Source: Eledone cirrhosa (lineage: Eukaryota). From it: 64,000 bases of DNA. The stretch is from assembly GCA_964016885.1 (NCBI GenBank), contig OZ024762.1, positions 10,912,001 to 10,976,000 of the forward strand, written 5' to 3'. The notes beneath the pieces are model-generated. The model was not told the DNA's origin. It saw only the letters and a list, made by a program, of their open reading frames with translations, and made no database searches. The first letter of the stretch is position 1. Every line of letters begins with the position of its first letter. This document shows positions 2,240-3,473 of the stretch, piece after piece. The translations under genes were made by a program, and so were the position numbers.

Positions 2240-2680
2240 ATATTAATTTAAAATATTAATAAAAATAAACATTCATGTGATCTAGTATATTTTATTAGAC
2301 ATATTTCAGAGGTACTGAGCTAACTTCAACAGTACGTCCTCATCGGATAAAATAAGATGATGCATGACATATCCTGACATAGTAGATGGTTAAGATTCAG
2401 TCATGGTAGACTATATACTCACTACCATGACTGTATCTTAACCATCTACTATGTCAGGGTATGTCATGCATCATCTTATTTTATCCGATGAGGACGTACT
2501 GTTGAAGTTAGCTCAGTACCTCTGAAATATGTCTAATAAAATATACTTGATCACATTAATGTCTATTTTTGTTAATATTTTGAATTAATATTAATAACTC
2601 TGGAAAACCAATTTTGTTGAGTGCTTCCAATCTATTGTAAAACTCATTCTTTGATTGATTCATTGAACCTTGTTTAACTT
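2240..2680. mobile_element. Fold-back element (170-bp arms, 12-nt loop, one-sided extension) with a degenerate hammerhead motif in each arm; Penelope-like pLTR remnant
   Basis: Arms 2240-2409 and 2422-2591 are near-perfect inverted repeats; (TA)n on both sides. Confidence 0.7.
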
Positions 2681-2695
2681 TTATATATATATATA

Positions 2696-2803
2696 CAGGG
2701 TGTCCCAAAAATGTATACACTTTTATTACCTGTACAAGCAACATTTATTAGAATGCTGTTGAAGTGTGTATACATTTTTTAGGGGGGGGGGGGGGGCACC
2801 CTA
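2696..2803. mobile_element. Tc1/mariner-like MITE
   Basis: TA-CAGGGTGTCCCAAAAATGTATACAC...GTGTATACATTTTT..GGGGCACCCT-ATA; TIRs with TA flanks. Confidence 0.65.
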
Positions 2804-2841
2804 TATATATATATTCATTTATATTAAAGCTAAAAAGTGAG

Positions 2842-2889
2842 TCTTGTTACTCGAGTTTCGCCTGTTTATGACAGGGTCTTCAGACAAGA
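2842..2889 (-). ncRNA. Minimal type I hammerhead ribozyme motif
   Basis: Minus strand reads TCTTGT-CTGAAGA-c-CCTG-tcataaa-CAGG-c-GAAA-CTCGAG-TA-ACAAGA: intact core, 6-bp stem I, palindromic stem III, GUA cleavage triplet. Confidence 0.8.
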
Positions 2890-2890
2890 A

Positions 2891-2939
2891 CTTGTCTGGT
2901 GACCCTGTGATAAACAGGTGAAACTCCTGAGTAACAAAG
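2891..2939 (+). ncRNA. Hammerhead motif, core variant (CUGGUGA)
   Basis: CTTGT-CTGGTGA-c-CCTG-tgataaa-CAGG-t-GAAA-CTCCTGAG-TA-ACAAAG; inverted partner of 2842-2889. Confidence 0.6.
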
Positions 2940-3269
2940 ACTCACTTTTTAGCCTTAATATAAATGAATATTAAAACTCTATTTCGGTATTGAGTACTCC
3001 TTTCTCTCGGCCGTCAACCACTTACAACAGATATATATATATAACCAAAGATTAGTATGATTCGTTGATTACTCAACGAATATAATTTTACACTCAGCGG
3101 TGGGGTTTTCCTGGAGTTTTTAATATTATTCAAAATGTTAACAAATGAAAAATATTCTCATAATCAAAATATATACTTTATTATATATATTTCAAAGTAC
3201 GTTTTCATCTGCCATAACTGGAATTGAATAATCAAGACCGTAGCGCTATGTCACATATCAAATCATATA

Positions 3270-3330
3270 TTTTGTCTGATGAAAACGTACTTAAACACCT
3301 TTAAGTACCTTTGAAATATATATAATAAAG
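3270..3330 (+). ncRNA. Minimal type I hammerhead ribozyme motif
   Basis: TTTTGT-CTGATGA-AAAcGTACTTAAA-cacc-TTTAAGTACcTTT-GAAA-TATATA-TA-ATAAAG: intact core, long stem II, palindromic stem III, AUA triplet. Confidence 0.75.
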
Positions 3331-3473
3331 TTTTTGATTATGAGAATATTTTTCATTTGTTTACATTTTGAATAATATATATATATATATATATATATCT
3401 ATATCTATATATATATATATATATGTGTGTTCTTGTAACAGCTAAACTCCGCCAGTTGCAGACTGCGCGTCAC

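What the first reader, a model, noticed from the sequence alone, without database searches (positions are those of the whole stretch)
2240..3378. Cluster of three fold-back elements in (TA)n tracts, each with back-to-back hammerhead motifs
Seen: three adjacent elements with unrelated sequences (2240-2680, 2811-3030, 3043-3378) share one architecture. Each is (TA)n, a short arm, a centre, an inverted arm extended by 60-90 nt on one side, then (TA)n. A hammerhead motif sits in each arm, pointing outward from the centre. The same architecture recurs at 32691-32948 and about 62960-63109. Stem sequences differ between elements while the CUGANGA/GAAA/NUH core and the pairing are kept, as expected if the structure was selected. 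Established: Penelope-like elements (PLEs) carry minimal hammerheads in their pLTRs, often insert as inverted 5'-truncated pLTR pairs with a tail extension, and favour AT-rich targets. Inference: this genome has several families of short, non-coding, ribozyme-bearing hairpin retroelements (PLE-derived or retrozyme-like) that target TA microsatellites and may not be catalogued.
Basis: partly seen in the sequence, partly recalled or inferred. Interest (0 to 1): 0.85.

Follow-up and report, generated by a model that had tools for sequence, protein, structure and literature searches.

The report
Penelope retroelement stubs with start hairpins
The three fold-backs are truncated, head-to-head ends of a known clade of Penelope-like jumping genes that land in TA repeats; they also show a small conserved RNA hairpin, present twice per element, that likely tells the reverse transcriptase where to start copying.

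Summary
The fold-backs are real. They are not new self-propagating mini-elements but 5'-truncated, head-to-head end pieces (pLTRs) of Hydra-clade Penelope-like retrotransposons (Craig 2021), a clade known for TA targeting and hammerheads. Each family has about 2,000 candidate copies here. Families of elements 1, 3 and the 32.7-kb copy end RT/GIY-YIG genes; element 2's link is weaker. Corrections: elements 1 and 3 are related; element 3's left arm and the 63-kb element lack a full hammerhead; both arms of element 1 carry the same core mutation. Beyond the papers I found: ends fall at two fixed sites, and 60 of 78 head-to-head pairs use one of each. A covarying bulged hairpin (RCUC...GAGY-RC) lies 3-5 nt past the first site and, in most families where it could be read, again past the second. 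It stands in 42 of 54 leaders of related elements from other organisms, twice in 23. Likely mechanism: both nicked target strands prime on one RNA, each beside one hairpin. Cleavage and priming are untested. This scan found the same reading, hairpin included, earlier on other DNA of this genome.

The parts
2240..2409 (-). Element 1, short arm: inverted pLTR piece ending at site 1
2422..2591 (+). Element 1, long arm up to site 1
2477..2543 (+). Element 1 hammerhead: core 2485-2491 (U4C at 2486), predicted cut after 2535; mirrored copy at about 2288-2354 on the minus strand with the same two changes
   Evidence: sequence, family copies, arm alignment, contigs read T at 2486 and A at 2533
2592..2682 (+). 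Element 1 tail (site 1 to site 2)
2597..2624 (+). Hairpin 1 of element 1 (ACUC...GAGU-GC, UU bulge)
2696..2801 (.). Unrelated 106-nt element with terminal inverted repeats, between elements 1 and 2
2811..2888 (-). Element 2, short arm with an intact hammerhead (core starts 2883, predicted cut at 2848)
2891..2971 (+). Element 2, long arm to site 1; hammerhead core 2896-2902 (CUGGUGA), predicted cut after 2933
2972..3030 (+). Element 2 tail, with hairpin 1 at 2976-2997
3043..3122 (-). Element 3 tail, with a degenerate hairpin 1 at about 3092-3117
   Evidence: sequence
3123..3209 (-). Element 3, tail-bearing arm; starts inside the hammerhead core, stem II partly deleted
3210..3378 (+). Element 3, tail-less arm, reaching about 65 nt further 5' than its partner; intact hammerhead, core 3276-3282, predicted cut after 3324
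32691..32951 (.). Fourth family, same plan: hammerhead in both arms, hairpin 1 at 32748-32726 (minus strand); a sister subfamily has intact 710-aa ORFs
62960..63125 (.). Fifth family, same plan, both arms truncated inside the hammerhead; hairpin 1 at 63013-62996 (minus strand)

Best explanation
Each fold-back is a head-to-head pair of truncated end pieces of a Hydra-clade Penelope-like retrotransposon, likely left by one aborted insertion in which both nicked strands of a TA repeat primed reverse transcription on the element's RNA, each starting a few bases before one of two conserved hairpins. Shown: the arms are pLTR ends of RT + GIY-YIG elements; their outer ends fall at two fixed sites; pairs use one site each; a covarying hairpin follows site 1 in all five families and site 2 in the families where the leader could be read, imperfectly in the 32.7-kb family. 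Inferred: the protein nicks both strands of (TA)n, as shown in vitro for another clade (PMC11167929). It would bind hairpin 1 and hairpin 2 in the leader between hammerhead and start codon. The two cDNAs would stop early and join, giving a palindrome with the site 1-to-site 2 tail on one side. The hammerhead would act only in the full element's RNA, as a dimer or with protein help. The stubs carry hairpin 1 but not hairpin 2 and would fold on themselves, so they are probably dead ends. New TA edges would attract further insertions, hence the cluster.
For: Link to coding elements: element 1's end lies in sense 1.5-2.5 kb behind a Hydra-type ORF, often with an inverted copy in front and the tail on one end only (L116, L117, L121, L122, L126, L128, L129, L132). 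In L117 the tail runs into the leader and ATG. Element 3's end follows the C-terminal endonuclease in sense in 9 of 30 loci picked by its 3' UTR. The 32.7-kb family's sister subfamily has pLTR-ORF-pLTR copies, 7 of 7 compared having stop-free 710-711 aa ORFs. Two end sites in all four families tallied; with queries lying 5' of both sites, 26 of 30 (element 3) and 13 of 25 (element 2) ends fall on them. 60 of 78 head-to-head pairs are site 1 + site 2, 3 are 1+1, 3 are 2+2, 12 have an unclassified end. Arms of one insertion share private variants 3-6 times more often than arms of different insertions; 0, 4, 0 and 0 of 2000 permutations reach this. Hairpin: first pair A-U 78, G-C 20, G.U 1 of 99 copies. 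In other organisms 42 of 54 leaders hold it, 23 twice; controls gave 1 and 3, shuffles 0.5. The pair above the 2-nt bulge is formed in 76 of 76 motifs (C-G 52, U-A 22, U.G 2), and 10 of 18 repeat-copy ends lie 0-4 nt before a hairpin. G.U cells outnumber A.C cells 58 to 5, favouring the sense RNA.
Against: No biochemical data and no RNA data. Element 2's ORF link rests on two loci where its inverted end abuts the same decayed Hydra-type ORF piece; a third ORF copy had no element-2 end within 8.5 kb. Pfam gives no RT or GIY-YIG match, so domain calls rest on motifs and on likeness by eye to the published proteins. The partner arm is the nearest arm in only 19 of 70 pairs; subfamily structure or gene conversion could also give shared variants. 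Most loci were picked with tail-bearing queries, so one site-2 arm per pair is partly selection. The hairpin folds no better than shuffles (z -0.8 to +0.4; two of the four windows clipped it). In the 32.7-kb family the sequence after site 2 is an imperfect match and a further partial motif lies nearer the ATG. 8 of 18 copy ends in other organisms are not 0-4 nt before a recognised hairpin. Core columns are no better kept than the rest in element 2's family. Related sequences are not independent counts.
Confidence: 0.7

Rival explanations
1. Same Hydra-clade origin, but the inversion arises by self-priming or fold-back copying of one strand (antisense self-priming was proposed in PMC3846280), and the tail by endonuclease resolution of the intermediate (PMC8557442); the hairpin would then mark a cut or stop site.
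For: Shared private variants between arms. 16 of 35 short junctions overlap by 2 nt or more and many are near-perfect palindromes.
Against: In 6 of 35 short pairs the tail-less arm reaches more than 10 nt further 5' than the tailed arm, in 6 the reverse; element 3 is such a case. Neither arm can then be a copy of the other. The tail sits on the inverted or on the main copy alike. G.U bias favours the sense RNA.
Confidence: 0.15
2. The stubs are self-propagating non-autonomous hairpin retroelements or retrozymes, copied as units by Penelope proteins.
For: About 1,900-2,400 candidate copies per family; non-autonomous PLE derivatives and PLE-derived retrozymes exist.
Against: Junctions are mostly distinct; no head-to-tail arrays of the unit were seen in the loci read; the same ends continue into UTR and ORF; stubs lack hairpin 2.
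Confidence: 0.07
3. The two arms use different RNA molecules held by one protein complex, or are two successive insertions from one active subfamily into the same TA site.
For: The partner is the nearest arm in only 19 of 70 pairs; TA sites are reused (16 of 120 loci hold a second family).
Against: Element 1's two arms share two changes that the other copies and the laid contigs lack; the strict site 1 + site 2 pairing needs coupling.
Confidence: 0.06
4. Ordinary DNA-transposon MITEs with terminal inverted repeats and TA duplication.
For: Long inverted arms, TA flanks.
Against: Asymmetric ends, variable centres, linkage to RT genes, covarying hammerheads.
Confidence: 0.02

Closest known systems
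Hydra clade of C-terminal-endonuclease Penelope-like elements, incl. Hydra-1_Obim (Craig et al. 2021, PMC8557442; read: abstract, sections 6 and 11, passages, supplement parts 2, 52, 53)
   Same: RWK, DKT, CxCx5C linker, C-terminal GIY-YIG-like stretch, CxxC and CxH, hammerhead near the 3' end, (TA)n target, inverted 5'-truncated copy.
   Different: These families are not in the paper's table; units are longer (about 4-4.7 kb pLTR to pLTR against 'generally <3 kb'); tails are 53-91 nt against the 30-40 bp quoted; the paper's main text has no hit for 'hairpin' or 'stem-loop'.
Poseidon element PAc of Anolis (Frangieh et al. 2024, PMC11167929; read: parts 1-2 of 4 and passages)
   Same: Two internal RT start sites bracket the tail; both target strands cut and extended; AT-rich target; hammerhead in the pLTR.
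   Different: Other clade; starts lie inside the ORF at an AC-rich stem loop, here in the leader before the ATG; no duplicated signal and no one-site-per-arm rule in the parts read.
Minimal PLE hammerheads (Cervera and de la Pena 2014, PMC4209133; read: parts 1-2 of 4)
   Same: Type I, palindromic short helix III, dispersed truncated copies, pairs on opposite strands 100-700 bp apart already noted in Schistosoma.
   Different: The element 1/3 group has G.U or A-U at 10.1-11.1 and a fixed mismatch, mostly C.C, at the fourth position of stem II.
Non-LTR retrozymes (bioRxiv 10.64898/2026.07.22.740005; read: part 1 of 5)
   Same: Non-coding, type I hammerhead, PLE-derived.
   Different: Retrozymes are head-to-tail tandem repeats; these are head-to-head pairs with variable junctions.
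LINE-1 twin priming (recalled; search listing only)
   Same: Both target strands prime on one RNA and give a 5' inversion.
   Different: In L1 the second start is opportunistic; here both starts are fixed and marked by a repeated RNA structure.

Membership tests
Hydra-clade PLE | Single ORF with RT and C-terminal GIY-YIG | tested here: met
   710-711 aa stop-free ORFs with YRDD at 346 and a V-Y..YVG stretch at 575; motif-based, Pfam silent
Hydra-clade PLE | RWK motif and DKT in place of DKG | tested here: met
   RMRWK at 35 and DKT at 114 in L234; DKT in element-1-linked ORFs, with RW followed by C or a stop in the copies read
Hydra-clade PLE | CxCx5C linker, CxxC and CxH near the end, no CCHH | tested here: met
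   L234: 556, 659, 690; same motifs in L121, L122, L346-type ends; absence of CCHH read by eye from the translations
Hydra-clade PLE | Canonical hammerhead in the pLTR | tested here: met
   activity not testable here
Hydra-clade PLE | Insertion into (TA)n | tested here: met
   TA follows 71 of 75 site-1 ends
Hydra-clade PLE | Generally shorter than 3 kb | tested here: not met
   pLTR-to-pLTR about 4.1-4.7 kb; a descriptive trait in the paper, not a diagnostic
Hydra-clade PLE | RT phylogeny groups with Hydra | not tested
   reference proteins were seen only as text in a supplement; compared by eye
Hydra-clade PLE (element 2 specifically) | pLTR belongs to a Hydra-type ORF | tested here: inconclusive
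   inverted junction with the same decayed ORF piece in L181 and L226; same hairpin, two end sites and TA target
Naiad PLE | N-terminal GIY-YIG, DKA, no canonical hammerhead | tested here: not met
Non-LTR retrozyme | Head-to-tail tandem units each with a type I hammerhead | tested here: not met
   head-to-head pairs; no tandem array at the site
Self-propagating non-autonomous family | Shared internal junction across dispersed copies | tested here: not met
   44 of 51 junctions distinct; a sample of top hits, not a census
DNA-transposon MITE | Symmetric terminal inverted repeats reaching both ends, fixed size | tested here: not met

The most novel reading that the evidence does not exclude
Hydra-clade Penelope elements carry a programmed twin-priming device: two copies of a bulged RNA hairpin in the leader each position one reverse transcriptase 3-5 nt upstream, one per nicked target strand, so that the inverted pLTR and the one-sided tail of PLE insertions are the obligatory product of a single symmetric reaction on one RNA.
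Probability: 0.5. Interest if true: 0.7.

Novelty: new member of a known kind. Interest (0 to 1): 0.45.

Why it matters
As elements they are ordinary debris of a described clade. What matters is the geometry they record. How PLEs make inverted ends and a tail is an open question named in PMC8557442. A defined cis signal beside both end sites, a one-site-per-arm rule, and nearly identical intact ORFs in this genome (up to 99.9%) make that question testable in vitro. PLE reverse transcriptases are the sister group of telomerase, so a start signal on their RNA bears on how template start is specified in that lineage.

Tried and rejected
Rfam: nothing at gathering score in the window; at E<=10 only sub-threshold matches, mostly miRNA models matching the palindromes, no hammerhead. 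Pfam: no RT or GIY-YIG family for 3 own ORFs or 39 aligned relatives. PDB by sequence: nothing under E 0.15. RNA runs: no RNA holder listed, which is no evidence on expression; three contig runs of one sample, kind not on record, showed no listed joint that removes a whole element (15 of 414 joints shown), so no target duplication could be read. Monomer folding energy did not separate the hammerheads of elements 1 and 2 from shuffles (z -0.27 to -0.55); element 3's right arm did (z -3.27). My descriptor missed the window copies of elements 1 and 3, which I read by hand. Walking upstream from element 2 reached no full ORF. A Naiad assignment was dropped on motif order. A clustering of full-length 5' ends at site 2 or at the hammerhead cut site was suggested by a few copies but not by the 32.7-kb family; not pursued. 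No dimer fold was run: two full copies exceed the size limit. Paper searches and term finds showed no description of the twin hairpin; Repbase, Dfam, subscription journals, supplementary figures and the Frangieh supplement were not seen.

Full report
Setting. The window is G000:C23:10912001-10976000 of a 3.0-Gb animal genome. I take it for an octopod from my memory of its SINE and from earlier notes; this was not tested. E1, E2, E3 are the three elements, E4 the one at 32.7 kb, E5 the one at 63 kb.

Observation. The three palindromes, their TA flanks and one-sided extensions are there. A type I minimal-hammerhead descriptor found both arms of E2 and E4 and a lone motif at 33471; with stem I of 5 or more it gave 3 hits against 0.0-0.025 in 40 shuffles. 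It missed E1 and E3, which I read by hand. E1 has CCGAUGA and GUCUA in both arms where family copies have CUGAUGA and GUAUA. E3 has one intact hammerhead; its left arm begins inside the core. E5 is cut inside the hammerhead in both arms. E1 and E3 are related at 71-76%. A different 106-nt element separates E1 and E2. Rfam sees no hammerhead.

Families. First-look candidates number 2116 (E1), 2385 (E2), 1865 (E3), 692 (E4) and 2727 (E5); only 40 were scored each time, and I fetched 20-30. Many copies are single truncated ends; others run 5' into a long UTR.

Link to coding elements. E1 copies adjoin an RT ORF with a C-terminal GIY-YIG-like stretch. Of 20 long loci picked by that protein, 13 had an E1-type end in sense behind the ORF, and 8 had a second copy inverted in front with the tail on one end only. 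In L117 the tail continues into a leader and the ATG. For E3, 13 of 30 loci picked by its UTR had ORF matches, 9 of them the C-terminal end in sense. E4 sits between two ORF copies in L141, and a subfamily 87-88% identical to it has full pLTR-ORF-pLTR copies; 7 of 7 ORFs compared are stop-free and 97-99.9% identical. E2 is weaker: its inverted end abuts the same decayed ORF piece in L181 and L226. No ORF was found for E5 in 20 loci. The proteins carry the Hydra diagnostics listed in PMC8557442 section 11. That paper's table lists Hydra-1_Obim with (TA)n preference, and an inverted 5'-truncated copy in Penelope-13_HM. Pfam names neither domain, and no tree was built.

Hammerhead selection. Among 113 motifs of the E1/E3 group found by sequence anchors alone, stem II positions 1-3 and 5-8 pair in 101-110 of 113, with changes on both sides between subfamilies. 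Position 4 pairs in 4 of 113 and is mostly C.C. Twelve recurrent types pair in 84 of 84 cells against 73.9 shuffled, 0 of 5000 reaching it. Helix III loops stay self-complementary. Core columns vary less than the rest in E1, E3 and E4 but not in E2. This fits the dimeric minimal ribozymes of PMC4209133, which cleave poorly in vitro. In a read-through transcript each stub would zip up (-115 to -277 kcal/mol), so I predict no cleavage from the stubs.

Two end sites. Outer ends pile up 3-5 nt before a hairpin (site 1) and at the tail end 53-89 nt later (site 2) in E1-E4 (HSPs under 84% identity or touching a locus edge were dropped). With queries lying 5' of both sites, 26 of 30 E3 ends and 13 of 25 E2 ends fall on them. 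Of 78 head-to-head pairs 60 are site 1 + site 2, 3 are 1+1, 3 are 2+2 and 12 have an unclassified end. One tailed arm is partly due to my queries; the tail-less partner is not. Arms of one insertion share private variants at 2.18, 0.84, 1.27 and 2.64 per 100 nt against 0.38, 0.30, 0.35 and 0.65 between insertions, but the partner is the nearest arm in only 19 of 70. In 35 short pairs either arm can reach further 5' (6 and 6 by more than 10 nt), which excludes simple fold-back copying for those. Junctions are mostly unique, so the stubs are not amplified as units.

The hairpin. RCUC-N8-22-GAGY-RC follows site 1 in all five families. A second copy follows the tail, before the ATG, in E1-type leaders and in two other families; in E4 the second is imperfect. 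The first pair is concordant in 98 of 99 copies. As an outside test I fetched 78 metagenome loci of related ORFs and gave 63 of them; the 15 left out mostly lacked the ORF start or its flank. Of 54 distinct leaders 42 hold the motif and 23 hold two, against 1 in ORF windows, 3 on the reverse strand and 0.5 in shuffles. Of 41 3' flanks 26 have a hammerhead, and 17 of these have the motif 36-54 nt after the cut site. In 76 distinct motifs from 67 loci the structure is a 4-bp stem, a 2-nt 3' bulge (UU in 59) and a covarying upper stem: pair 5 forms in 76 of 76, Watson-Crick 74 against 43.9 shuffled. Ten of 18 repeat-copy ends lie 0-4 nt before a motif; 8 do not. In this genome pair 5 forms in 61 of 69, and G.U cells outnumber A.C 58 to 5. 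By eye the motif is clear in 3 of the 6 published consensi (Hydra-2_Amil, Hydra-1_Ajap twice, Hydra-2_Ajap), variant in Hydra-1_Crog and unclear in two. It is thermodynamically weak, and related sequences are not independent.

Mechanism. PMC11167929 showed for a Poseidon element that both strands are cut and extended and that two internal start sites bracket the tail. Joining that with the one-site-per-arm rule and the duplicated hairpin, I infer twin priming at two marked starts on one RNA, early stop and joining. The alternative in print is antisense self-priming (PMC3846280, passages only) or endonuclease resolution. Clustering: 16 of 120 loci carry a second of the five families within about 1.5 kb and none carries two others, so a triple is uncommon but fits reuse of TA edges.

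Novelty. The elements are new families of a described clade. The twin hairpin and the pairing rule were not in the papers found by five searches or in the passages read; unseen supplements and repeat databases may hold them. Earlier notes of this scan reach the same reading. I saw the two-start wording of e1-9537110 before running my end tests. I noted the hairpin before seeing e1-9568615 and e1-8804881. These notes are not independent evidence.

Verdict. Real, largely known, with one testable mechanistic addition. Interest 0.45.

Noticed in passing
window 2696-2801: 106-nt element with CAGGGTG-type terminal inverted repeats between TA runs; similar copies lie beside element-2 ends in L004 and L176. 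Looks like a Tc1/mariner-type MITE (label recalled).
   Followed up: partly
window 33467-33513: Lone hammerhead-like motif with a perfectly palindromic helix III; no inverted partner seen.
   Followed up: no
window 59684-59783 and 63721-63799: Two short TA-flanked palindromes of a further related repeat, with no hammerhead core recognised.
   Followed up: no
L234, L236-L239, L241, L243 (G000): Seven stop-free 710-711 aa Hydra-type ORFs, 97-99.9% identical, mostly with flanking pLTRs: a recently active family; an extra hammerhead-like copy (77-84% to the pLTR) lies inside the 3' UTR.
   Followed up: partly
element 1/3 group hammerheads, e.g. window 2492-2523 and 3283-3312: Stem II keeps a mismatch, mostly C.C, at its fourth position while its neighbours covary; possibly a tertiary or protein contact.
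   Followed up: partly
L124:2365, L089, L217, L047: Several ORF-bearing copies begin right at site 1 or site 2, as a unit-length copy of a circular or tandem RNA would; the 32.7-kb family does not show this clearly.
   Followed up: partly
window 1085-1280, 3465-3660, 16656-17090, 39669-40108: Very abundant SINE-like repeat, also in tandem and inverted arrays.
   Followed up: no
L016:2382-3125: Open frame with an F-box-like N-terminal stretch (judged by eye) next to an element-2 copy.
   Followed up: no
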